NCBI GenBank assembly: GCA_036787775.1
Contig: DAIQOR010000001.1
Coordinates: 30,521-94,520, forward strand
Direction: 5' to 3'
Source of the DNA: a bacterium
Lineage (GTDB): Archaea > Nanobdellota > Nanobdellia > Pacearchaeales > GW2011-AR1
DNA length: 64,000 bases
The notes under the pieces are model-generated. The model saw only the letters and a program-made list of their open reading frames with translations, was not told where the DNA came from and searched no databases. Position numbers and translations under genes: made by a program. Positions 1,185 through 58,102 of this stretch are shown here, in pieces. Numbering within the stretch: the first letter of the stretch is position 1; every line of letters starts with the position of its first letter.

Positions 1185-2726
1185 ATGAAAATAACGCTAA
1201 TTTCTACTTCCACTTTTCCCTCAGACCAAGGAATAAGAACAATCTCTGCAGTTTTGAAAAGAGAAAGTCATGAAGTAAAAATAATCTTCATGACTTTAGG
1301 CGAAGACTATTCCAGAAACTATTACGAAAAAGAATTATTACAACTTGAGAGATTATGCACGGGGAGCGATTTAATTGGGATAAATGCTTTTGCTTCGACA
1401 TCCGAAAGGGCAAAAAAAATAATAAAATTTCTAAAAAGCAAAATTCCAATTCCAATTATTTATGGAGGAGTACATCCAACACTTTTTCCAGAGAAATGCA
1501 TCGAGTTTGCAGATATGGTCTGCGTAGGAGAAGGGGAGGAAGCAATTATAGAATTAGTTAATGCTCTTGAAAAAGGAAAATCCATAAGTGAAATAAAAAA
1601 TATTTGGTCCAAAGAAAAAAGGGGGAAAATAATAACAAATACAGTTAGGAATTTATTGGATGAAATTGACAAATTACCTCTTCCAGATTATGATTTAGAA
1701 GATCATTATATCCTAAAAAATCAATCAATAAGGAAATTTAAAGAATCAGATTTAGTTGGACAAGTTTTATTTTTAACCGGAAGAGGTTGTCCTTATGGAT
1801 GCGATTATTGTAGCAATAGTTGTTTCAATGAACTTTACAAAGGAAAAAGAAAAAAAATACTCAGATTACATTCACCAAAATATATTATCGAAGGAATTTT
1901 ATATTTCAAAAAAAAGTTCAAGACATTAGGGTATTTTGATATTCGGGATGATACTTTTTCCATGAGACCCTTAGAAAACATAAAAGAATTTTGTAAACTT
2001 TACAAAGAAAGGGTAAACATGAGATTCAAATGTTTAGGAGACCCACACACTATCGACGACGAAAAAATAAAATTATTAGTAGATACAGGATGTACAGATA
2101 TAATCATTGGAATTCAAGGAAGTGAAAAAACAAACAAAGAAATTTATCATAGGAATCAAACAGATAGCGATGTTTTAAGGTCGGCAAAAATTTTACACAA
2201 ATATAAAGATAAGCTTGCAGTGATGTATGATATTATTGCATGTAACCCCTATGATAAGCCAGAATACATTTTAGATTTAATTGATTTAGTAAGAAAAATT
2301 CCCAAACCTTATTTTTTATCCGTCAATAATTTGGTTTTTTTCCCCGGTTCAGCTTTGTATAATCGTGCAAAAAGAGATGGATTGATAAAAACAGAAAAAG
2401 ATGCAGCATACCAATTAAATTATTGGGATAGAGCAAAGCACATAAAATTAAAAGGTAATAATGTTTATCTAAATTTAATTTTGAATTTAATGAGAGGAGC
2501 TGCTAAAGAAAATAGAATTGGTTTTTTACCTAATTTTTTGATGGATTGGGCATTGAAACCAGAAAGGGTTAAGTATCATCTTAAGCACCCAGCATTTTCA
2601 TATTTAGTTCTTTCAATTATTGAAATATATGATAATTTAAGAGAAAGAATATTAAAACCAATTTTTAGAGCTTTACCATTAAGTTTCAAAATATGGCATG
2701 ATAAAGTTAGATACCATTTCAAATAA
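1185..2726 (+). CDS. Cobalamin(B12)-binding domain radical SAM protein
   Basis: N-terminal B12-binding-like Rossmann segment followed by radical SAM CxxxCxxC (GCPYGCDYCSNS); 513 aa. Confidence 0.7.
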   Translation: MKITLISTSTFPSDQGIRTISAVLKRESHEVKIIFMTLGEDYSRNYYEKELLQLERLCTGSDLIGINAFASTSERAKKIIKFLKSKIPIPIIYGGVHPTLFPEKCIEFADMVCVGEGEEAIIELVNALEKGKSISEIKNIWSKEKRGKIITNTVRNLLDEIDKLPLPDYDLEDHYILKNQSIRKFKESDLVGQVLFLTGRGCPYGCDYCSNSCFNELYKGKRKKILRLHSPKYIIEGILYFKKKFKTLGYFDIRDDTFSMRPLENIKEFCKLYKERVNMRFKCLGDPHTIDDEKIKLLVDTGCTDIIIGIQGSEKTNKEIYHRNQTDSDVLRSAKILHKYKDKLAVMYDIIACNPYDKPEYILDLIDLVRKIPKPYFLSVNNLVFFPGSALYNRAKRDGLIKTEKDAAYQLNYWDRAKHIKLKGNNVYLNLILNLMRGAAKENRIGFLPNFLMDWALKPERVKYHLKHPAFSYLVLSIIEIYDNLRERILKPIFRALPLSFKIWHDKVRYHFK

Positions 2727-3417
2727 TTCTTTCAAAATATTCAGTCACATCCTCAACACCTGCCCAATGAAACCCTGCCTGCCTCAATTTACAAGCTAAA
2801 CAAAATCCACAATGTTTTTCCTTTCCAACATAACAACTAAAAGTTTTTTTAAAATCAACACCTAATTTTTTACCTATCAAAATAATATCTTCTTTATCTT
2901 TTTTTATCAGCGGAGCTTTTATTTCAAAATTCCCCGAACAACCAATCTTCGCAAGGCGATTTATTTCTCGAACAAATTCTTTTGTTGTGTCTGGATAACT
3001 TTCATCACCTTCGCATTTGAATCCCACAAAAATATCACAGTTTTCCTTATTTTTCACAAATCTCGATTCCGCAAGTGCAAGAGCATAAGTCAAAAAAATC
3101 GTGTTCCGACAAGGCACATAATATTTTTCCGATTCCTCTTTTGTGTCCTTCAAATCTTTTTTACTAAGTTTTTTTATTTCACCTTCTTTATTAATTAATG
3201 AACCCGAGATTTCTCCCAACCAATCCAATTTTATCTCTTCAAATTCAGCCCCAAGATTTTCAGCACAACTTTTTGAACATTTTCTCTCTGAATCCAAGGA
3301 TTTTTGTCCATAATTAAAAAAAAGCACCAAAAGCTCATAACCCGCGTTTTTCGCGAAATAAGCGGTTGTAACGCTATCAATTCCTCCCGAGCACAGAATT
3401 ATTGCCTTCTTCTTCAT
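2719..3417 (-). CDS. queC: 7-cyano-7-deazaguanine synthase QueC (PP-loop ATPase)
   Basis: N-terminal PP-loop ILCSGGIDSVTTAYF and C-terminal Zn-site C-x7-C-x2-C-x2-C (SCYVGKEKHCGFCLAC). Confidence 0.7.
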   Translation of the reverse strand: MKKKAIILCSGGIDSVTTAYFAKNAGYELLVLFFNYGQKSLDSERKCSKSCAENLGAEFEEIKLDWLGEISGSLINKEGEIKKLSKKDLKDTKEESEKYYVPCRNTIFLTYALALAESRFVKNKENCDIFVGFKCEGDESYPDTTKEFVREINRLAKIGCSGNFEIKAPLIKKDKEDIILIGKKLGVDFKKTFSCYVGKEKHCGFCLACKLRQAGFHWAGVEDVTEYFERII

Positions 3418-3466
3418 AGTATTTCATCTCGGCAAACTTTATAAGTTTTAATTATTCTCCCTCTCT

Positions 3467-3661
3467 ATGAAAAAGAAAGCAAGTGAACTAACAAAAGGTG
3501 ATAAAATAAATTTAGCGAATAAGTCTTTTGTAATAAAAGAGTTCGAACTTTCTGAAATCGGAAAACACGGCAAGCGAAAATGTCGTATTGAAGCAGAATC
3601 CGAACAAGGCGAAAAGATAACAATTATCCGTCCGGAAGACTATCCAGTAGAGACCCTATGA
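3467..3661 (+). CDS. eIF-5A-like mini-protein (N-terminal SH3-like domain only; hypusine-loop-like GKHGK)
   Basis: 64 aa; TKGDKINL...SEIGKHGKRKCRIEAE closely parallels the aIF5A in this window (SKTGKHGHAKCRIEAM); stop TGA overlaps start of downstream GT2 (ATGA). Confidence 0.5.
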   Translation: MKKKASELTKGDKINLANKSFVIKEFELSEIGKHGKRKCRIEAESEQGEKITIIRPEDYPVETL

Positions 3662-4563
3662 TTAATATTATAATCACTTCCTACAACGAACCCAAAGCAA
3701 CCCTTCGGGCGGTAAAAACATTTTTAGACCAAAAAATTAAAGAAGATTTCAAAATAATTGTGGTAGACCCTTTCCAAGAAACAGAAGATTTTCTTAAAAA
3801 AAATATTAAAGATAAACGAGTAAACTTTTTTTTAGATCCGGGAGAGGGAAAAAGTTACGCACTAAATTTGTTATTCCAAGAAAATTTTTCTGAAAATAAA
3901 AACGATTTATTTATTCTAACTGATGGAGATGTTTACGTCTCAGAAAATTCCTTAAATGAAATAATAAAAGCATTCAAGGCTAAAGAAGTCGGATGTGTTG
4001 CAGGAAAACCCACAACTCTAGACTCAAAAAAAACAAAATATGGTTTCTGGTCTCACTTCGCGTTTGAAGGAATCCATCAAGCAAGAAAAAAATTATCCGA
4101 AAATAAAAAATTCTTTGAATGCTCGGGATATTTATTTGCCATAAGAAATTCAGTCCTATTTGACTTTCCTTTGGAATCTTCCGAAGATTCAATAATCCCT
4201 TATTTATTTTGGGAAAAAGGTTACAAAATAAAATATGTTCCAGAAGCAGAAGTTTATGTGAAAAATCCAGACAATTGGAAAGATTGGTTAAATCAAAAAG
4301 TAAGGAACATTAAAGGTCACGAAAATTTAAACAAAATCGCTCCCAACATGCCACGAACTAAATCTCTATTTAACGAAATAAAACATGGATGGAATTTTTT
4401 ATTTTTTTATCCAAAGAACATCCAAGAATTATTCTGGACAATTCAATTATACTTCGCAAGGTTATACCTTTATTTCAAAGCCTTCAAAGAATTAAGATTA
4501 AACAAAAAATATTCCGATGGTTGGAGAGAAACCGAAATAAATTCCACAAAACCTTTAGATTAA
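3658..4563 (+). CDS. Glycosyltransferase family 2 (GT-A)
   Basis: IIITSYNEP N-terminus, DxD-like TDGDVYV, 301 aa. Confidence 0.7.
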   Translation: MINIIITSYNEPKATLRAVKTFLDQKIKEDFKIIVVDPFQETEDFLKKNIKDKRVNFFLDPGEGKSYALNLLFQENFSENKNDLFILTDGDVYVSENSLNEIIKAFKAKEVGCVAGKPTTLDSKKTKYGFWSHFAFEGIHQARKKLSENKKFFECSGYLFAIRNSVLFDFPLESSEDSIIPYLFWEKGYKIKYVPEAEVYVKNPDNWKDWLNQKVRNIKGHENLNKIAPNMPRTKSLFNEIKHGWNFLFFYPKNIQELFWTIQLYFARLYLYFKAFKELRLNKKYSDGWRETEINSTKPLD

Positions 4564-4962
4564 TTTTTTTAGCGCTTTTTTTAACTCTTCAACTGACTCA
4601 AAAATTTTCATAGAACCAATTAAAATTGCGCTCAAATATTCAATTGCATTTTCAACCGGCTCGTCAGTTTTTATTCCAAAAGTAGGCACGCCTTTCGCAT
4701 AAGCATAACCAATCTCCCAAGCAGTTCCAGCACCAACATGAAGCCCGTCAAGATTTGCCAAAACGAAATCACAATTTTCAAAACCTTTAATTATATCTCC
4801 TTCGAAAATTTTTTTTACATCTTGAACCTCGCTATATAATCCAACATCTCTATGGGGCAAAAAAGTTTCAAAACCCAAAGATTCGCACAATTCAGCAAGA
4901 ACTTCCAATCGTTCTCTTTCTGTCTTGTTCGTCAATTTTCCCGCAATATACACTTTCTTCAT
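4555..4962 (-). CDS. Nucleoside 2-deoxyribosyltransferase-like protein (PF05014-like)
   Basis: MKKVYIAGKL... and DGLHVGAGTAWEIGYAYAKGVP motif typical of NDT-like Rossmann family; 135 aa. Confidence 0.55.
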   Translation of the reverse strand: MKKVYIAGKLTNKTERERLEVLAELCESLGFETFLPHRDVGLYSEVQDVKKIFEGDIIKGFENCDFVLANLDGLHVGAGTAWEIGYAYAKGVPTFGIKTDEPVENAIEYLSAILIGSMKIFESVEELKKALKKLI

Positions 4963-4995: not shown

Positions 4996-6357
4996 ATGAA
5001 GCTTGTAATAATTAAATTAGGCGCATTAGGAGATGTAGTCCGAACGCTCCCTTTAGCAAAAGCGCTAAAACAAAAATATCCCGAGGCAGAATTAACCTGG
5101 ATAACAAATCCAAATGCAATCACAATTTTGGAAAATAATCCCCATATAGATAAAATTTATTCTTCAAATGAAGAAATTTCAGAAACATTTGATAAATTAT
5201 ATAATTTTGATATTGATGATGAAGCAACAAATTTATCATCCAATATTGAATCAAAAGAAAAGTTCGGATTTTACAATTCAGACGGATTTGTTTCAGCTTT
5301 TAATTTAGGTGCAGAATATTACCTAAACACACTTTTTGATGATGAACTAAAAAAGGAAAATAAAAAAACTTATCAAGAGATGATGTTTATGGTTGCCGAA
5401 ATTCCTTATAATCAAGAACACGAGACAATTTATTTGACCAAGGAAGAAATAAAATATGGAAAAAAATTTATTCAAGAAAATAAACTTTTTGAAAAGAAAA
5501 TAATCGGAATAAATATTGGAGCTTCCTCAAGGTGGCCATCAAAAAAATTACATGAAGAAAATTTAAAAGAATTAATAAAAAAATTATCTAAACACGAAAA
5601 TCACATAATTCTTTTAGGAGGTCCAAACGAAGTTGAATATCTTGAAACAATTCATAAAGAATTTCAAGAGTTTCCAAATATAATCAAAAATAATCCTTCA
5701 AATTCTCTAAAAGAATTTACCTCAATAATCAATATCTGCGACGAATTAATTTGTGGAGATACTTTAGCACTACATCTTTCAATCGCGCTAAAAAAACCAA
5801 CAATTGGATTATTTTTCTGTACATCTCATTCCGAAGTTGAAGATTATAATCTACTTAAAAAAATAATTTCTCCAAAATTTGATGAATTTTTTCCAGAGAA
5901 GATGGATCAATATGATGAAGAGTTAGTAAAAAGTATTTCCTGCGAGATGATTTTAAATTCATTAAATAAACCTGTTAAAGTAGCAAATGCCATGATAAAA
6001 AATGGAGACAAATTTTTAGTAATCAAAAGAAAAGATGAAGAAATTCATGCAGGGAAATGGATGTTTCCTGGAGGAGTTTTAGAAGATAATGAAAATTTTG
6101 AAGAAGCATTAAAAAGAGAAATAAAAGAAGAAGTTGGTTTAGAAATAAATCAAATAATAAAAGAAATATCAAATTATAAATACCTTCGACCTGACGGAAA
6201 AATTACCCTTGGAAAAAGTTATTTAGTTAATACAGAAGATTTTAATGTTGAAACTAATGGAGAAGTCGAAGATTTTAAATGGGTGACTTTAGAAGAATTC
6301 GAAAAATTAGATTCAATAGAAGGTTTGGCGGAAGAATTATTAGATACTTTTGAATAA
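4996..6357 (+). CDS. GT9 (heptosyltransferase-like) glycosyltransferase fused to C-terminal Nudix hydrolase domain
   Basis: Start moved to internal ATG (MKLVIIKLGALGDVVRTLP = GT9 N-terminal signature); C-terminal Nudix box GGVLEDNENFEEALKREIKEEVGLE (GX5EX7REUXEEXGU). ORF-track start 4852 overlaps the convergent gene. Confidence 0.65.
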   Translation: MKLVIIKLGALGDVVRTLPLAKALKQKYPEAELTWITNPNAITILENNPHIDKIYSSNEEISETFDKLYNFDIDDEATNLSSNIESKEKFGFYNSDGFVSAFNLGAEYYLNTLFDDELKKENKKTYQEMMFMVAEIPYNQEHETIYLTKEEIKYGKKFIQENKLFEKKIIGINIGASSRWPSKKLHEENLKELIKKLSKHENHIILLGGPNEVEYLETIHKEFQEFPNIIKNNPSNSLKEFTSIINICDELICGDTLALHLSIALKKPTIGLFFCTSHSEVEDYNLLKKIISPKFDEFFPEKMDQYDEELVKSISCEMILNSLNKPVKVANAMIKNGDKFLVIKRKDEEIHAGKWMFPGGVLEDNENFEEALKREIKEEVGLEINQIIKEISNYKYLRPDGKITLGKSYLVNTEDFNVETNGEVEDFKWVTLEEFEKLDSIEGLAEELLDTFE

Positions 6358-6391
6358 AAACAAATAAAAACGCTTTTTGGCTAAATTTATT

Positions 6392-7924
6392 ATGGACGAA
6401 ACTCAGAAAGAATTAGAAAATAGAAAAAAGAAAATTCTAAACAAAATTATTCCCTTCATGAAGGAACCACTAAATCTTGCTTTAGTTACAGTTTTATTAT
6501 TCGCATTTGTCTTAAGATTATATTATTTCATAAAAGTAGGAAACCAGCCTCTTTGGTGGGATGAACTTTGTTATGGAAGTTTAGCAAAAAATTTTATAAC
6601 ACACACGTGGGATAGCACAACCTTAATCTTAGGAGAAACGGCAATAAGGCCAGTCCTTTTTCCCTTACTTTGGTCAATTCTTTTAAGAGTCGGAATTCCA
6701 GAAGGAGGAGTAAGATTTTTTTTAGAGTTTATTCCTTCAATTCTTTCTGTATTTTTTGTTTATCTAATTGGCAAAGAAACATTTAATAAAAGGGTAGGGA
6801 TTATATCCGCATTTATTTTTTCAGTTTTATGGATACACTTATTTTATACAGTTAGATTATTAACACATGCCCCCGCACTAGTATTTTTATTTTCCAGCAT
6901 ATATTTGTTTATGAAAGCTACGGAAACAAAATTTAATTTCAATCTTTTCACCATATCATTAATCCTTCTTTCTCTCAGCACATTAATGAGATATCCAAAG
7001 GGAATAATTTTCTTTGTGTATTTATTTATGTTGGTAATAGATAAAAAATTACTATTAAAAAATTTCAAATTTTGGAAAGCGGGCATTTTAGGAATCTCTC
7101 CAATGATCGTGTTTTTTATTTATAATTTTGTAAAATACCAAAATATATTTCCTGCCCTTTTAGGAGGAGGATATCTGGATAAAGGGGGATCCCCCCTTAT
7201 TAAACCGATTGCGTTTAATCTTTTAAATTTTATTCCAGTTTATCTTAAAACAACTTTCTTTATATTTTTCTTAATTGGTTTATTGTTAATTTTATTTGAA
7301 TTAATCACAGGATACAATTTAATACCAAAGATAAAAAAACTGAAAAATAGTCTAATTTTAATTTTAATTTTAATTTTAATTTATTCATTTTTCATATTTT
7401 ATATGCGAGCTGCTGAAGATAGATGGTTATTTCCAACAATTTTACCATTAGCAATTATAACTTCTTTAGGAATTGATTTTGTCTATAATCAAATAAAAAA
7501 ATATAACAAACAAATAGCAGTCTTATGCGTGATTCTTATTTTAGGATTTGGAGCTTATTCGCAATTAACTTTTGCAGATTCGCTGATAAAAGGAAAGCAA
7601 GAAAGTTACCTTCAGATGAGACAGGCATTCGAATGGATAGGTTCTAACACCCCTGAAGATTCAATCATAGCCGGTTTAGGGATAGAACCTTATACTGTTT
7701 ACTATGCAAAAAGAGATTATATCAATCTCCCCCAGAATTATTCGGAAGTTGGAGTGGCTTTGGAGGCAGATTATCTTGTAGCACATCTTTTTGCGGGAAA
7801 TCCTCCAAAATATTTAAGTGAATATCTTTCTGAAAATCAAGATATTTGGCAGCCCTTAAATGCCTGGTTTTTAGATGAAGCAAAAACTCAACCAGCAGTT
7901 ATTTTATATAAAAAGGTTCAATAG
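6392..7924 (+). CDS. GT-C fold membrane glycosyltransferase (ArnT/PMT-like, GT39/GT83-like)
   Basis: About 12 predicted TM helices, first-loop WWDE acidic motif; ORF track starts at TTG 6377, first ATG at 6392. Confidence 0.55.
   Translation: MDETQKELENRKKKILNKIIPFMKEPLNLALVTVLLFAFVLRLYYFIKVGNQPLWWDELCYGSLAKNFITHTWDSTTLILGETAIRPVLFPLLWSILLRVGIPEGGVRFFLEFIPSILSVFFVYLIGKETFNKRVGIISAFIFSVLWIHLFYTVRLLTHAPALVFLFSSIYLFMKATETKFNFNLFTISLILLSLSTLMRYPKGIIFFVYLFMLVIDKKLLLKNFKFWKAGILGISPMIVFFIYNFVKYQNIFPALLGGGYLDKGGSPLIKPIAFNLLNFIPVYLKTTFFIFFLIGLLLILFELITGYNLIPKIKKLKNSLILILILILIYSFFIFYMRAAEDRWLFPTILPLAIITSLGIDFVYNQIKKYNKQIAVLCVILILGFGAYSQLTFADSLIKGKQESYLQMRQAFEWIGSNTPEDSIIAGLGIEPYTVYYAKRDYINLPQNYSEVGVALEADYLVAHLFAGNPPKYLSEYLSENQDIWQPLNAWFLDEAKTQPAVILYKKVQ
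7354..7383 (+). repeat. Tandem hexanucleotide (aatttt)x4-5 inside GT-C gene, encoding (LI)n
   Basis: aattttaattttaattttaattttaattta read directly; in-frame. Confidence 0.8.
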
Positions 7925-9037: not shown

Positions 9038-10171
9038 ATGAAAATAATTCTTTTTTATGAGTTTCTTTCTGAACAAGGGGGTCTAGAGCGAGAGATAATT
9101 AATCACGCAACCTTTCTAAAAGAGGAAGGGTATGAGGTTTTAATTTTAACTTGTCATAAAAGTAAAGATATAGAAAAACTTTTACCCTTCGGAGACTTAA
9201 AAATTGAACAAATATCCTCGGTAAAAACTCCTTTTCAAACAATCAATCTCGCCTTATGTTTTTTAGGTTTTAATAAAATTAAAGAATTTAATCCAGATTT
9301 ATTTCTCAGTTATAGTTTTCCATGCAATTTTCTTTTAAGAAAAAAAAGACAGAAAAAAATAAATTATGTGAACCATTTTCCGCATTATCTTTATCTGAAA
9401 GGAAAAGAAAAGTTAGAATGGGCAAATTCTTTTGATAGAAAAGTTTCACTTGTCTTGGAATTTTTTCTGGGAAGATGGTTAAGAAAGAGAGACAAAGAAT
9501 TATTGAAAGAAAATAAATTATTATTTGTAAATAGCGTATTCACTAAGAAAAAAATAGATGAAATTTATCAAGTAAATTCTATTGTGAGTTATCCACCTAT
9601 AGATCCAAGAATAAAGCCAGTAAAATCAAATCTTCAAGAAAAATTTATTTTCTCTTGTGGAAGAATTATTCCCGATAAAAAATATGAGTGGTTAATTGAA
9701 TCTTGCTCTAAGATGAAAAATAAATTGCCCCTTTATCTTGCAGGCCAAGGAGATAAAAATTATATAGGTTCATTAAAAAATTTAGCTAAGAAATATAATG
9801 TTAGATTAAAATTTTTAGGCAAGTTGGATACGATGAAAATAATAAAATATTATTCTTCTGCAGAAGTTTTCGCTTTTTCGACCCCTGGAGAAGATTTTGG
9901 ATTAGTGCCTGCAGAAAGTTTAACTTGCGGAACTCCTTGTGTTGTGTGGGAAGATTCTTCAGGACCAACAGAACAAATTGTTGAAGGAATTAACGGATTT
10001 TTAGCAAAACCATATGATTTACAAAGTTTTGCAAATAAGTTGGATTTAGTCTTAGATAATAAATTTAAAGAAAAAAATAAAAAGAAAATTTTGGATTCTT
10101 CAAAAAAATTTTCGGCAGAAGAAGTAAAGAAAAGTTTTATTAAGGAGGTAAATTTAATTTTTAAAAGATAA
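9038..10171 (+). CDS. Glycosyltransferase family 4
   Basis: C-terminal GEDFGLVPAESLTCGTPCVV GT4 motif; 377 aa. Confidence 0.7.
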   Translation: MKIILFYEFLSEQGGLEREIINHATFLKEEGYEVLILTCHKSKDIEKLLPFGDLKIEQISSVKTPFQTINLALCFLGFNKIKEFNPDLFLSYSFPCNFLLRKKRQKKINYVNHFPHYLYLKGKEKLEWANSFDRKVSLVLEFFLGRWLRKRDKELLKENKLLFVNSVFTKKKIDEIYQVNSIVSYPPIDPRIKPVKSNLQEKFIFSCGRIIPDKKYEWLIESCSKMKNKLPLYLAGQGDKNYIGSLKNLAKKYNVRLKFLGKLDTMKIIKYYSSAEVFAFSTPGEDFGLVPAESLTCGTPCVVWEDSSGPTEQIVEGINGFLAKPYDLQSFANKLDLVLDNKFKEKNKKKILDSSKKFSAEEVKKSFIKEVNLIFKR

Positions 10172-10173
10172 AA

Positions 10174-11184
10174 ATGGAAGAATTAAAAAAATTTTATTCT
10201 GGAAAAAAGGTTCTTGTAACGGGGGGGGCAGGATGTATTGGAAGTTGTTTAGTTGAAAAATTAGATGAATTTGGGGCACAAATATCAATCTTAGATAATA
10301 TGATGAGGGGTCAGGAAGCCGTTAGAAATTTAGAAGGAGTATTAAATTCTACAAGTACTCCTCCAAAGATATTTATCAAAGATATCACAGATGTTTTCCA
10401 AGTAAAGAATATTTTTAAAAAAGAAAATGGGTTTGATATTGTATTCCATTTAGCAGCATTACCTAGCCACAGACTTGCTTTAGAAGATCCAAGAGCTTAC
10501 ATAGAAACAGATGTAATGGGAACCACAAACATTTTGGAGGTTGCGAGATTATCAAAAACTCCAACGGTAGTTTTTGCTTCGTCAAACAAAGTTTATGGAA
10601 AGCAAACGCCCCCATTTAGGGAAGATAAGCCTTGTTTACCAGAAGGTCCTTATGCTTTAGCAAAGTTTCAATCAGAACAAATATGTCAAATGTATTCTAC
10701 TTATTGGGGGTTAAATACTCCTGTCGTAAGATTCCATCATGTTCTTGGACCACGAACTCAACCAGATAGAGAAATTTCTATTTTTACGGAACAAATAATT
10801 AAAGGAGAGACTCCAAAAGTTCATGGGGTTTATGAAGGAGAGATATTTATTTCCTGCGCAGCAGATTACACAGATGTTAATGATGCTGTTGAAGGAGCTT
10901 TAAGAGCTGGAATGATTAAAGGATTTGATACATTTAATTTAGCTACTGGAAAAGTTACAACTGTTGAGGATATTGCAAAAAAGATTATGGTCAAATTAGG
11001 AAAAGATATCCCAATAGAATATAAAAAAATGTTATCTCACGAAACTTTAGTTCATTTATCAGATATTTCAAAAGCAGAAAAGATTCTTGGATGGACTCCA
11101 AAAAGAACGGTTGATGAATCAGTAAGAGATTATGTTGATTGGAGATTAAAATTTGGTAAAAGGCCAGACGCCTTTTATAAATAA
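10174..11184 (+). CDS. NAD-dependent nucleotide-sugar epimerase/dehydratase (extended SDR)
   Basis: VLVTGGAGCIGSCLVEKL Rossmann, ASSNKVYG, YALAK catalytic motif. Confidence 0.7.
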   Translation: MEELKKFYSGKKVLVTGGAGCIGSCLVEKLDEFGAQISILDNMMRGQEAVRNLEGVLNSTSTPPKIFIKDITDVFQVKNIFKKENGFDIVFHLAALPSHRLALEDPRAYIETDVMGTTNILEVARLSKTPTVVFASSNKVYGKQTPPFREDKPCLPEGPYALAKFQSEQICQMYSTYWGLNTPVVRFHHVLGPRTQPDREISIFTEQIIKGETPKVHGVYEGEIFISCAADYTDVNDAVEGALRAGMIKGFDTFNLATGKVTTVEDIAKKIMVKLGKDIPIEYKKMLSHETLVHLSDISKAEKILGWTPKRTVDESVRDYVDWRLKFGKRPDAFYK

Positions 11185-57652: not shown

Positions 57653-58045
57653 TTACAATCTTCGCTTAACAATCTTAGTTCCTTCAACATCCCAATATTC
57701 GCAATTTCCACTTTCTTCAAGAGTATCAAAAACTTCTTGCTCCGGAACTAAAATCTCCAAAGTCTCGAAAGTTTCTAAATCCATAACATTCGCTCTCCCT
57801 TCAGTTTTAGAAAGAACTTGGCCTTTTCTCTTATCAACAATTGGAACTTCCAACCTATCGTGCCCAGGAATAACAAAAACTTTTTTAGAACCACTTATCA
57901 ACGGCATAGCCTCGATTCGGCACTTCGCGTGACCATGTTTTCCAGTCTTAGAAACATCCATACTTTTCACAACACAAGGTGTTCCATCAACAATAATATT
58001 TGTGCCCACCTTTGCATCTGTCGCGCTGATAATTTTTAAAACCAT
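57653..58045 (-). CDS. eif5a: Translation initiation factor 5A (aIF-5A)
   Basis: Hypusine loop SKTGKHGHAKCRIE; start set to internal ATG (MVLKIISATDAK). Confidence 0.85.
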   Translation of the reverse strand: MVLKIISATDAKVGTNIIVDGTPCVVKSMDVSKTGKHGHAKCRIEAMPLISGSKKVFVIPGHDRLEVPIVDKRKGQVLSKTEGRANVMDLETFETLEILVPEQEVFDTLEESGNCEYWDVEGTKIVKRRL

Positions 58046-58102
58046 ATATTCTTTAAAAAAGATATGTTTATAAAAGTTTTTGATTACAATTTTGGATAAC
58101 AA

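What the first reader, a model, noticed from the sequence alone, without database searches (positions are those of the whole stretch)
3467..3661. A 64-aa eIF5A-like mini-paralogue translationally coupled to a GT2
The 64-aa protein matches the SH3-like N-terminal domain of the bona fide aIF5A at 57653..58045. It reads ...SEIGKHGKRKCRIEAE, compared with ...SKTGKHGHAKCRIEAM in aIF5A, and keeps the GKHG loop that carries the hypusinated lysine. It lacks the C-terminal OB domain. Its TGA stop overlaps the ATG of the downstream GT2. A second, truncated eIF5A homologue inside a glycosylation operon is unexpected. It could be a decoy for deoxyhypusine synthase or a ribosome-binding regulator.
Basis: seen in the sequence. 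Interest (0 to 1): 0.6.

Follow-up and report, generated by a model that had tools for sequence, protein, structure and literature searches.

The report
Stand-alone IF5A N-domain protein, QueC/GT2-linked
A real, strongly conserved 64-residue protein of tiny DPANN archaea keeps only the lysine-loop domain of translation factor IF5A and is almost always encoded between a 7-deazaguanine enzyme (QueC) and a glycosyltransferase, which suggests an undescribed, possibly modification-based role.

Summary
ORF 3467..3661 (+) encodes a 64-aa homologue of the IF5A N-terminal barrel (BLASTP against the window's aIF5A E=8e-9; AF2 pLDDT 90; TM 0.82-0.92 to a/eIF5A and EF-P domain I). Its TGA overlaps the GT2 ATG.

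It is one member of a discrete short family. A profile search finds 932 proteins, and the best 120 are all 63-80 aa. All named sources are Pacearchaeota/Nanoarchaeota. The gene is under purifying selection (dN/dS about 0.2). Family-wide invariants are S29, K33 (the hypusine-site equivalent), K38 and R40.

QueC lies divergently upstream and shares a single invariant TTTATAA box with the mini gene, centred in an intergenic region of exactly 50 nt in 66 of 87 loci. A minimal cellulose-synthase-like GT2 follows within 2 nt or less in 59 of 91 loci. The module persists in members only about 40% identical.

The module QueCs pass the canonical cutoff but all lack two signature residues.

Function is unproven. 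My best guess (about 0.3) is that the protein is an acceptor modified on the Lys loop by its neighbours, as happens with EF-P and IF5A. The DHS-decoy idea is not excluded but is disfavoured. I rate it a new variant of a known kind, interest about 0.6.

The parts
3467..3661 (+). Mini-IF5A gene: a 64-aa stand-alone IF5A N-terminal (SH3/KOW-like) beta-barrel protein
   Evidence: ORF. Homology to aIF5A. AF2 pLDDT 90.4 and TM 0.82-0.92 to a/eIF5A N-domain and EF-P domain I. The family has 66 clusters from a single-sequence search and 932 hits from a profile search, nearly all 63-66 aa. dN/dS is about 0.2.
3551..3586 (+). Lys loop S29-R40 (SEIGKHGKRKCR). K33 (3563..3565) aligns with the hypusinated Lys of a/eIF5A.
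   Evidence: S29, K33, K38 and R40 are the only residues invariant across core and distant members. The invariant residues are encoded by several synonymous codons. Position 34 is Q75/H25, position 30 is D82/E12 and position 31 is I86/V12.
3629..3646 (+). C-terminal R-P-x-x-Y-P motif (RPEDYP here), specific to the core family and absent from aIF5A
   Evidence: It is invariant in the first 66 clusters. In the wider set R-P and Y-P are kept while the middle pair varies: RPEDYP 62, RPSNYP 9, RPADYP 7. It is absent in distant members.
3418..3466 (.). Divergent 49-nt intergenic region with a single central TATA box (TTTATAA at 3438..3444), 24-26 nt from both start codons. I infer a shared bidirectional promoter giving leaderless QueC and mini-IF5A/GT2 transcripts.
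   Evidence: An ungapped stack of 35 distinct 50-nt regions shows TTTATAA invariant at positions 22-28, with symmetric A-rich and T-rich flanks and no conservation elsewhere. Spacing is 50 nt in 66 of 87 loci and 49-51 nt in 79 of 87. The promoter function and the leaderless transcripts are inferred from the known archaeal TATA position at -26/-27.
2719..3417 (-). QueC (7-cyano-7-deazaguanine synthase family), divergent partner
   Evidence: Pfam QueC E=7.7e-55. TIGR00364 scores 158.8 bits against a cutoff of 150.3. It aligns full-length to 3bl5 and 2pg3. It is adjacent and divergent in about 46 of 50 species genomes and in 44 of 44 GT2-anchored loci with room. Clade-wide, the His of YxQxHxxE and the Cys of YPDC are never present.
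3658..4563 (+). GT2 glycosyltransferase (301 aa) of minimal cellulose-synthase-like type, co-transcribed with the mini gene. Its ATG overlaps the mini gene's TGA.
   Evidence: Pfam PF00535, PF13641 and PF13632. Invariant D37, D89-G-D91, E176-D177 and Q213-x-x-R216-N. AF2 pLDDT 91; the best folds are hyaluronan, chitin and cellulose synthase cores and PcManGT 6yv7. The mini gene lies immediately upstream in 67 of 69 GT2-anchored loci.
4555..4962 (-). Nucleoside 2-deoxyribosyltransferase-like gene (135 aa), convergent with the GT2; a frequent fourth member of the module
   Evidence: PF05014. PDB 7m5h E=3e-8. Present after the GT2 in about 42 of 50 species loci. Fused to a thymidylate-kinase-like domain in L062.
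4996..6357 (+). GT9 (heptosyltransferase-like)-NUDIX fusion, a frequent outer neighbour
   Evidence: PF01075 plus PF00293. Present in about 43 of 50 species loci, often without the NUDIX part.
57653..58045 (-). Bona fide full-length aIF5A (130 aa, N-domain plus OB domain) of the same genome. It shows that the mini gene is an extra paralogue and not a split gene.
   Evidence: TIGR00037 scores 107.6 bits against a cutoff of 75.45, covering residues 6-126. Pfam IF5A-like_N E=1.4e-11.

Best explanation
The gene encodes a functional, lineage-specific single-domain paralogue of aIF5A. It is a small beta-barrel whose only universally conserved feature is the protruding Lys loop (S-x-x-G-K-x-G-x-x-K-x-R).

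It is expressed from one shared, symmetric TATA box together with the divergent QueC. It is co-translated in an operon with a minimal cellulose-synthase-like GT2.

My most likely reading is that it is the protein acceptor of a lineage-specific post-translational modification placed on or next to K33 by its neighbours. This would match every characterised EF-P/IF5A-family protein, which is functionalised on this same loop tip by enzymes often encoded beside it.

Of the two neighbours, QueC is the better candidate for direct action on the loop. The proposed chemistry is ATP-dependent activation of 7-carboxy-7-deazaguanine and amide ligation to a protein amine, as shown for the QueC-family enzymes Cap9 and QatC. 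The GT2 could elaborate the adduct or work in the same pathway at the membrane.

Shown: homology, fold, selection, family breadth, module conservation, promoter architecture and QueC signature deviations. Inferred: leaderless bidirectional transcription, any physical interaction, any modification, and the downstream role (ribosome or tRNA binding versus another role).
For: (1) The protein is real and under selection. dN/dS is about 0.2 and invariant residues use multiple synonymous codons. The family is a discrete short one.

(2) The Lys loop is the conserved core. S29, K33, K38 and R40 are the only invariants once distant members are included.

(3) Established knowledge: EF-P and IF5A proteins are modified at this loop (hypusine by DHS; beta-lysine by EpmA, an adenylate-forming enzyme; rhamnose by EarP). 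Domain I alone suffices for enzyme recognition, as shown by EarP:EF-P domain I complex 5wxk among the fold hits. DHS also contacts only the N-domain (PMC10042821).

(4) The linkage is near-obligate. QueC is divergent and adjacent in about 46 of 50 species genomes and 44 of 44 metagenome loci. The GT2 is adjacent in about 47 of 50, and the mini gene is upstream of the GT2 in 67 of 69. The arrangement is retained in three of the four distant members examined, which are 38-43% identical.

(5) A single invariant TTTATAA sits at the centre of a 50-nt spacer. This implies coupled expression of QueC and the mini-GT2 operon.

(6) QueC-family enzymes can ligate CDG to proteins while keeping a canonical core (Cap9; PMC13082051). 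All 53 module QueCs lack the His of YxQxHxxE, giving the YxQ(x)5E spacing described for Cap9, and lack the Cys of YPDC. Both motifs sit at the pocket opening.

(7) Two separate lineages with a 7-aa insertion in the Lys loop both carry changes at otherwise near-invariant QueC positions (D174 and 134-137/153). Their GT2 and NDT-like proteins do not.
Against: There is no direct evidence of any modification or interaction.

The QueC passes NCBIfam's canonical equivalog cutoff. It keeps SGGxDS, VPxRN, the Zn-Cys cluster and the conserved Lys. It may therefore simply be the housekeeping preQ0 synthase. I could not tell whether its two deviations are general among archaeal QueCs.

Cap9 and QatC modify N-terminal alpha-amines of Gly, not a Lys side chain. 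The mini protein starts MKK.

The GT2 fold is that of glycan- or lipid-directed cellulose-synthase-like enzymes, with no protein-directed precedent.

A systematic co-deviation test between the mini protein and QueC or GT2 was negative (Spearman 0.17, p=0.12; Mann-Whitney p=0.59). The loop-insertion hint is post hoc and rests on two events.

Loop-insertion variants show that exact loop geometry is not indispensable.

The GT2 occurs without the mini gene in 2 of 69 loci, and the mini gene occurs without the GT2 or QueC in rare loci (L023, L019).
Confidence: 0.3

Rival explanations
1. Accessory or regulatory subunit. The barrel docks on the GT2 (or on QueC) as a small partner that controls or targets the enzyme. 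This would resemble the beta-barrel PilZ domain that gates cellulose synthase. It would have no role in translation and carry no covalent modification. The Lys loop would bind an acidic or nucleotide ligand or the membrane.
For: Tight co-translation with the GT2: gaps of 2 nt or less in 59 of 91 loci and ATGA overlap in 21. The mini gene is upstream of the GT2 in 67 of 69 loci. The GT2 is a minimal cellulose-synthase-like enzyme lacking the regulatory and channel parts of its relatives. The family-specific R-P-x-x-Y-P motif occupies the segment where aIF5A continues into the linker to its OB domain. That would suit a new docking surface, which is inference from the sequence alignment and the strand layout of the AF2 model.
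Against: No co-variation between the mini protein and the GT2. The middle of the RPxxYP motif is variable and the motif is absent in distant members that keep the GT2. The GT2 exists alone in 2 of 69 loci, and the mini gene persists without the GT2 in L023. This reading does not explain why the hypusine-site loop in particular is the invariant part.
Confidence: 0.22
2. Independent translation or RNA factor. The mini protein binds the ribosome (E-site/PTC side) or tRNA through its basic loop, and tunes or competes with aIF5A. The QueC/GT2 linkage would reflect only co-regulation or inherited gene order.
For: It retains the loop that contacts the P-site tRNA CCA end in eIF5A. The loop is more basic (GK-x-G-K-R-K) than in aIF5A. 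A full-length aIF5A coexists with it. QueC makes a tRNA-modification precursor, so shared regulation of translation-related genes is conceivable.
Against: Ribosome binding of eIF5A uses nearly the whole N-domain plus part of the C-terminal domain (PMC10042821), and the OB domain is missing here. Outer flanks shuffle freely while the three-gene core and its exact 50-nt spacing are kept across lineages down to 38% identity. That is more than inherited order would predict. One distant member (P0075) lies in a different context.
Confidence: 0.2
3. Decoy or competitive substrate for deoxyhypusine synthase. The mini protein would soak up DHS or spermidine-derived modification and so regulate aIF5A activation.
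For: DHS recognises only the N-domain beta-sheet and loop of eIF5A (PMC10042821). G32, K33, G35 and K38 match the eIF5A loop.
Against: The loop differs systematically from SKTGKHGHA at the flanking positions: D/E at the K47 equivalent, I/V at the T48 equivalent, and Q in 75 of 102 at the H51 equivalent. Loop-insertion variants exist. The idea does not account for the QueC/GT2 module. No DHS gene appears in the window or the fetched loci, although whole genomes were not searched.
Confidence: 0.08
4. Spurious ORF, or a mere leader ORF whose peptide sequence is irrelevant and which exists only to allow coupled translation of the GT2.
For: The ORF is small, and leaderless geometry with stop/start overlap would suit a coupling leader.
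Against: Strong amino-acid conservation, dN/dS about 0.2, a confident fold and significant homology to IF5A.
Confidence: 0.01

Closest known systems
Archaeal/eukaryotic translation factor a/eIF5A (N-terminal SH3-like domain with the hypusine loop)
   Same: Homologous sequence and the same fold (TM 0.82-0.92). The Lys is at the same loop tip, flanked by the same two Gly and followed by K-x-R.
   Different: No OB-fold C-terminal domain. Scores are far below the family cutoffs. The loop flanks are D/E-I instead of K-T, and position 34 is mostly Gln. It has its own R-P-x-x-Y-P C-terminus. It is encoded alongside a normal aIF5A and lies in a QueC/GT2 module rather than a translation context.
Bacterial EF-P with adjacent loop-modifying enzymes (EarP rhamnosyltransferase; EpmA/EpmB beta-lysylation), and the EF-P paralogue EfpL/YeiP
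   Same: Same barrel fold. EF-P domain I and EarP:EF-P domain I complexes are among the best fold hits. The principle also matches: a modification enzyme encoded next to the factor acts on the loop tip, and domain I alone suffices for recognition. EpmA, like QueC, works through an acyl-adenylate.
   Different: EF-P has three domains. EarP is a GT-B enzyme acting on Arg, whereas the partner here is a GT-A cellulose-synthase-like GT2. No modification has been demonstrated here.
QueC-family protein deazaguanylation systems (Cap9 in type IV CBASS; QatC/QatB)
   Same: A QueC-family ATP-dependent enzyme is encoded directly beside a small or partner protein. The YxQ(x)5E variant of the signature motif is shared with Cap9 (PMC13082051).
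   Different: The QueC here is full-length (232 aa) and passes the canonical QueC cutoff. No CD-NTase, Cap10, QatA, QatB or QatD genes are present. The known substrates are modified on an N-terminal Gly, not a Lys loop. The setting is an archaeal glycosylation island rather than a bacterial defence island.
PcManGT-type minimal cellulose-synthase-like archaeal GT2 (partner enzyme)
   Same: The partner GT2 has the same size class and fold (6yv7, TMq 0.58-0.67) and the D, DxD, ED and QxxR motif set.
   Different: Sequence identity is only 14-17%. The motif is QxxRN rather than QxxRW. No small IF5A-like partner protein is known to me for PcManGT or other GT2s; I did not search the literature on this point.

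Membership tests
a/eIF5A translation factor (TIGR00037 / NF003076) | N-terminal SH3/KOW-like beta-barrel domain | tested here: met
   AF2 pLDDT 90.4 with six strands. Foldseek TM 0.82-0.92 to a/eIF5A N-domains.
a/eIF5A translation factor (TIGR00037 / NF003076) | Conserved Lys at the tip of the beta3-beta4 loop (G-K-H-G), the hypusination site | tested here: met
   K33 aligns with the hypusine Lys. It is invariant in the aligned family sets, although loop-insertion variants lack the G-K-x-G context. The His is Gln in 75 of 102 loci.
a/eIF5A translation factor (TIGR00037 / NF003076) | C-terminal OB-fold domain | tested here: not met
   The protein ends at residue 64. The profile match covers only positions 6-66 of 129. 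All family members are about 64 aa.
a/eIF5A translation factor (TIGR00037 / NF003076) | Score above the curated family cutoff | tested here: not met
   NF003076 scores 29.5 against 138. TIGR00037 scores 15.3 against 75.45. Pfam PF21485 scores 19.7 against 27.1.
a/eIF5A translation factor (TIGR00037 / NF003076) | Deoxyhypusine or hypusine modification by DHS, and ribosomal E-site binding | not testable with these tools
   This needs biochemistry. DHS presence across whole genomes could not be surveyed.
EF-P/EarP-type glycosylated elongation factor | Glycosyltransferase gene adjacent to the factor gene | tested here: met
   The GT2 is 0-60 nt downstream in about 47 of 50 species loci.
EF-P/EarP-type glycosylated elongation factor | Arg at the loop tip as acceptor, and a GT-B fold EarP (GT104) enzyme | tested here: not met
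   The loop tip is Lys. The partner is a GT-A, cellulose-synthase-like GT2.
QueC-family protein deazaguanylation (Cap9 / QatC systems) | QueC-family enzyme encoded next to its protein substrate | tested here: met
   Adjacency is met: divergent QueC at 50 nt with a shared TATA box. The substrate relationship itself is untested.
QueC-family protein deazaguanylation (Cap9 / QatC systems) | Truncated (about 185 aa, Cap9) or extended and remodelled (about 400 aa, QatC) QueC scaffold that does not make preQ0 | tested here: not met
   The QueC is 232 aa, aligns full-length to canonical QueC and scores above the TIGR00364 cutoff. Only two signature positions deviate. Activity is untested.
QueC-family protein deazaguanylation (Cap9 / QatC systems) | Companion genes (CD-NTase plus Cap10, or QatA/QatB/QatD) and a substrate with an N-terminal Gly | tested here: not met
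   The neighbours are glycosylation genes. PADLOC finds no system components beyond the generic QueC model. The mini protein starts MKK.
Pfam PF21485 IF5A-like_N domain | Match above the gathering threshold | tested here: inconclusive
   The window protein scores 19.7 bits against a cutoff of 27.1. Many family members carry precomputed PF21485 hits, some marked weak.

The most novel reading that the evidence does not exclude
K33 of the mini-IF5A is covalently conjugated to a 7-deazaguanine (a CDG amide) by the adjacent QueC, and the adduct is possibly then glycosylated by the GT2 or the NDT-like enzymes. The product would be a nucleobase- or nucleoside-tipped 'finger' on a translation-factor scaffold. 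It would be the first protein deazaguanylation in archaea, the first on a lysine side chain and the first outside anti-phage defence.
Probability: 0.1. Interest if true: 0.9.

Novelty: new variant of a known kind. Interest (0 to 1): 0.6.

Why it matters
EF-P and IF5A are universal factors whose loop-tip modifications are unusually diverse. A free-standing N-domain that keeps only this loop could point to a new modification chemistry or a new use of the IF5A scaffold. That is especially so because it is expressed from the same TATA box as a 7-deazaguanine enzyme and sits in an operon with a glycosyltransferase across hundreds of DPANN lineages.

It also gives a concrete, testable candidate for protein-directed QueC activity outside bacterial defence systems. 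It assigns a context to a widespread 'hypothetical protein' in genome-reduced archaea, where retained genes tend to matter.

The single symmetric TATA box at fixed 50-nt spacing is in addition a clean natural example of an archaeal bidirectional promoter.

Tried and rejected
- Split-gene idea: rejected. A complete aIF5A with both domains is present at 57653..58045.
- Spurious or leader ORF: rejected on conservation, dN/dS and fold.
- 'QueC linkage is deeper than GT2 linkage': I thought so. Pfam then showed that the two downstream ORFs in L062 are halves of the same GT2, so I withdrew the idea.
- Defence-system reading: PADLOC finds nothing for the mini protein, GT2 or NDT-like gene, and only a generic QueC model.
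- General co-variation between deviations in the mini protein and in QueC or GT2: negative. An apparent 9-deviation QueC (L115) was an artefact of counting gaps.
- RPEDYP as an invariant acidic motif: weakened, since only R-P-x-x-Y-P holds in the wider set.
- Literature searches on aIF5A with DPANN, DHS with DPANN, Pacearchaeota with archaeosine, DPANN with 7-deazaguanine, and PcManGT found no description of this family or module.
- A fold search against AFDB50 was unavailable.
- Complex prediction was not attempted.
- The window and the fetched loci show no DHS, arcTGT, QueD or QueE. This covers only a fraction of each genome and says nothing about absence.

Full report
**1. Observation**

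The ORF at 3467..3661 (+) encodes 64 aa, and its TGA overlaps the ATG of the next gene as ATGA at 3658..3661. The next gene is a GT2 glycosyltransferase (Pfam PF00535, E=6e-16). A full-length aIF5A lies at 57653..58045 on the minus strand (TIGR00037 107.6 bits against a cutoff of 75.45).

The claimed resemblance is statistically real:
- BLASTP of the two proteins gives E=8e-9, with 41% identity over 39 residues.
- NCBIfam IF-5A gives E=4.5e-7. Pfam IF5A-like_N gives E=7.8e-4, below its gathering score.
- A profile of the family searched against all PDB sequences has a/eIF5A chains as its top eleven hits, best Pyrobaculum aIF5A at E=1.3e-7. They make up 29 of the 33 hits at E<=1; the other four are Rrp9 (E about 2e-3) and a Glu-tRNA ligase.
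- An AlphaFold2 model built on 66 homologues is confident (pLDDT 90.4). It superposes on a/eIF5A N-domains and EF-P domain I with TM 0.82-0.92.

The protein is an IF5A N-terminal barrel with the hypusine-site lysine and no OB domain.

**2. It is a family, not an accident**

- A single-sequence search of 5.8 billion proteins finds 66 clusters, almost all 63-66 aa. Those that carry an organism name are labelled Pacearchaeota or Nanoarchaeota.
- An exhaustive HMMER scan of 1.84 billion representatives finds 33 clusters at 50% identity. They are again about 64 aa, and no full-length aIF5A appears at E<=1e-3.
- A profile that includes the most divergent members finds 932 proteins, and the best 120 are all 63-80 aa.
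- Fifty species-representative genomes carry the gene. All are DPANN MAGs labelled Pacearchaeota, Nanoarchaeota or 'Woesearchaeota'.
- Median dN/dS is about 0.2 with dS saturated, and invariant residues are written with several synonymous codons.

In the core family the loop S-[DE]-[IV]-G-K-[QH]-G-x-x-K-x-R and a C-terminal R-P-x-x-Y-P are conserved. Once members at 38-45% identity are included, only S29, K33, K38 and R40 remain invariant. The hypusine-loop equivalent is therefore the functional core.

Two separate lineages carry a 7-aa Lys-rich insertion in the loop.

**3. Context: a conserved module**

The gene sits in a glycosylation island covering roughly 0-21 kb of the window. The island holds GT4, a B12 radical-SAM gene, epimerases, PMT_2 and an STT3 gene. 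The immediate arrangement is far more constant than the island around it.

- In 50 species genomes a QueC gene lies divergently upstream in about 46, and the 301-aa GT2 lies 0-60 nt downstream in about 47. A nucleoside-2-deoxyribosyltransferase-like gene (about 42) and a GT9 gene, with or without a NUDIX domain (about 43), usually follow. The outer genes shuffle.
- I then anchored on the GT2 in metagenome contigs. The mini gene is immediately upstream in 67 of 69 loci that have room, and QueC is divergent and adjacent in 44 of 44. The two exceptions are genuine rearrangements.
- Of four distant members examined (38-43% identity, without RPxxYP), three keep the arrangement as far as their short contigs show. 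P0097 and P0095 have the divergent QueC, and P0097, P0095 and P0082 have the downstream GT2. Only P0075, which lies between a DsbA-like gene and PCNA, differs.

**4. Promoter anatomy**

The distance from the QueC start to the mini start is exactly 50 nt in 66 of 87 loci and 49-51 nt in 79 of 87. An ungapped stack of 35 distinct spacers shows one invariant TTTATAA at positions 22-28. It is flanked by symmetric AAtAAac and gTTT arms, and nothing else is conserved. In the window this is 3438..3444, which is 24 and 26 nt from the two ATGs.

Archaeal TATA boxes sit at about -26/-27. I therefore infer a single shared TBP site driving two leaderless transcripts in opposite directions. That would explain the fixed spacing and would couple QueC expression to the mini-GT2 operon.

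The gap from the mini gene to the GT2 is 2 nt or less in 59 of 91 loci, and a -4 overlap occurs in 21. Co-transcription is therefore conserved, but strict overlap is not.

**5. The partners**

QueC:
- It aligns end to end with canonical QueC structures (3bl5, E=3e-18). It just passes the TIGR00364 equivalog cutoff, at 158.8 against 150.3 bits.
- I compared it with the signature published for canonical QueC (PMC13082051). All 53 module QueCs keep SGGxDS, VPxRN, the zinc cysteines and the conserved Lys.
- None has the His of YxQxHxxE. They have S, T, A, N or Q with one extra residue, which gives the YxQ(x)5E form that the same paper reports for Cap9. None has the Cys of YPDC; they have T, A or S.
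- I could not determine whether these deviations are general in archaeal QueCs.

GT2:
- It has no sequence relative in the PDB.
- Its model (pLDDT 91) is closest to hyaluronan, chitin and cellulose synthase catalytic cores and to the minimal archaeal mannosyltransferase PcManGT.
- It keeps the D, DxD, ED and QxxR(N) motifs.
- Nothing in its fold points to a protein acceptor.

**6. Mechanism**

Function is not established. I rank the readings as follows.

(a) *Acceptor protein, about 0.3.* By analogy with every studied EF-P/IF5A protein, the loop tip would be modified by neighbour-encoded enzymes. QueC is the more plausible direct partner for four reasons.
- It uses acyl-adenylate chemistry, as EpmA does.
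- QueC-family enzymes have precedent for ligating CDG to protein amines while keeping a canonical core (Cap9).
- The residues at its pocket opening are altered throughout the clade.
- The two loop-insertion lineages both change QueC at D174 and at 134-137/153, while their GT2 and NDT-like proteins stay unchanged.

This last hint is post hoc and rests on two events. A systematic co-deviation test was negative.

(b) *Non-covalent accessory subunit of the GT2 or QueC, about 0.22.*

(c) *Independent ribosome or tRNA factor that is merely co-regulated, about 0.2.*

(d) *DHS decoy, about 0.08.* This is structurally possible, because DHS touches only the N-domain (PMC10042821). However, the loop flanks differ systematically from SKTGKHGHA, and the idea ignores the module.

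(e) *Spurious or leader ORF, about 0.01.*

**7. Comparison with known systems**

The protein works like, and is homologous to, the IF5A/EF-P domain I. It fails membership of the a/eIF5A factor family because it has no OB domain and scores below the cutoffs.

It resembles the EF-P/EarP arrangement only in principle. Here the loop residue is Lys rather than Arg, and the enzyme is GT-A rather than GT-B.

It resembles Cap9/QatC systems only in having a QueC next to a small protein. The QueC here is full-length and canonical-scoring, there are no companion defence genes, and the mini protein has no N-terminal Gly.

I found no paper describing this family or module. NCBI calls it a hypothetical protein, and JGI labels it generically as EF-P/IF5A.

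**8. Verdict**

This is a real, widespread and apparently undescribed single-domain IF5A paralogue locked into a QueC/GT2 module. I rate it a new variant of a known kind, with moderately high interest (0.6). It offers a sharp, testable hypothesis about a new loop modification, but no direct functional evidence yet.

Noticed in passing
window 3418..3466 (TATA at 3438..3444); same in L001-L144: A single, near-palindromic TTTATAA box lies at the exact centre of a 50-nt divergent spacer and is conserved in dozens of species. It looks like a natural archaeal bidirectional promoter giving two leaderless mRNAs.
   Followed up: yes
window 2719..3417 (-) and 53 orthologues in loci: The module QueC clade never has the His of YxQxHxxE or the Cys of YPDC, two signature residues of canonical QueC. 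It has the YxQ(x)5E spacing reported for Cap9.
   Followed up: partly
L043, L044, L109, L140 (mini gene around 10001..10216): These are 71-aa variants of the mini protein with a 7-aa Lys-rich insertion replacing the IGK[HQ]G loop tip (SDTITKGKSGANGKRK and SDTAGKSSIKDKKAARK). They occur in two non-sister lineages, and both have QueC substitutions at D174 and 134-137/153.
   Followed up: partly
P0092 (707 aa): A long, low-complexity, eukaryote-looking protein contains two tandem eIF5A N-domain repeats. Each repeat has an SSKTGKHGS loop, and a large unrelated C-terminal region follows.
   Followed up: no
P0085 (84 aa): This ORF has the N-terminus of the partner GT2 (MSMINVIITSYREP...VDPFPEV) fused in frame to the C-terminal half of the mini protein. 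It is either a local rearrangement or an assembly chimera.
   Followed up: no
L062 4716..5674 and 5657..6556: In a distant member's locus the partner GT2 is split into two ORFs of 127 and 178 aa. The NDT-like gene there is fused to a thymidylate-kinase-like domain. GT9 and an HldE-like (PfkB plus cytidylyltransferase) gene flank QueC.
   Followed up: partly
window 4996..6357 (+): This gene is a fusion of a GT9 heptosyltransferase-like domain with a MutT-type NUDIX hydrolase. The NUDIX part matches PADLOC candidate PDC-S07 (E=2.5e-23). Many orthologues lack the NUDIX part.
   Followed up: no
window 1185..2726 (+) vs 2719..3417 (-): A B12-binding radical-SAM gene converges on QueC and overlaps its 3' end by 8 nt. 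It is directly adjacent to QueC in about half of the species loci.
   Followed up: no
L005/L006 8853..10631: A NifU-like gene is interrupted by an intein with a LAGLIDADG homing-endonuclease domain, a few kb from the module.
   Followed up: no
window 57653..58102 (-): The mechanical ORF for aIF5A starts at an upstream TTG and is 149 aa. Family profiles and called genes support the ATG at 58045, giving 130 aa that begin MVLKI.
   Followed up: yes
L063 662..850: P0075 is the one distant stand-alone IF5A-N protein found outside the module. It lies between a DsbA-like thioredoxin gene and PCNA.
   Followed up: partly
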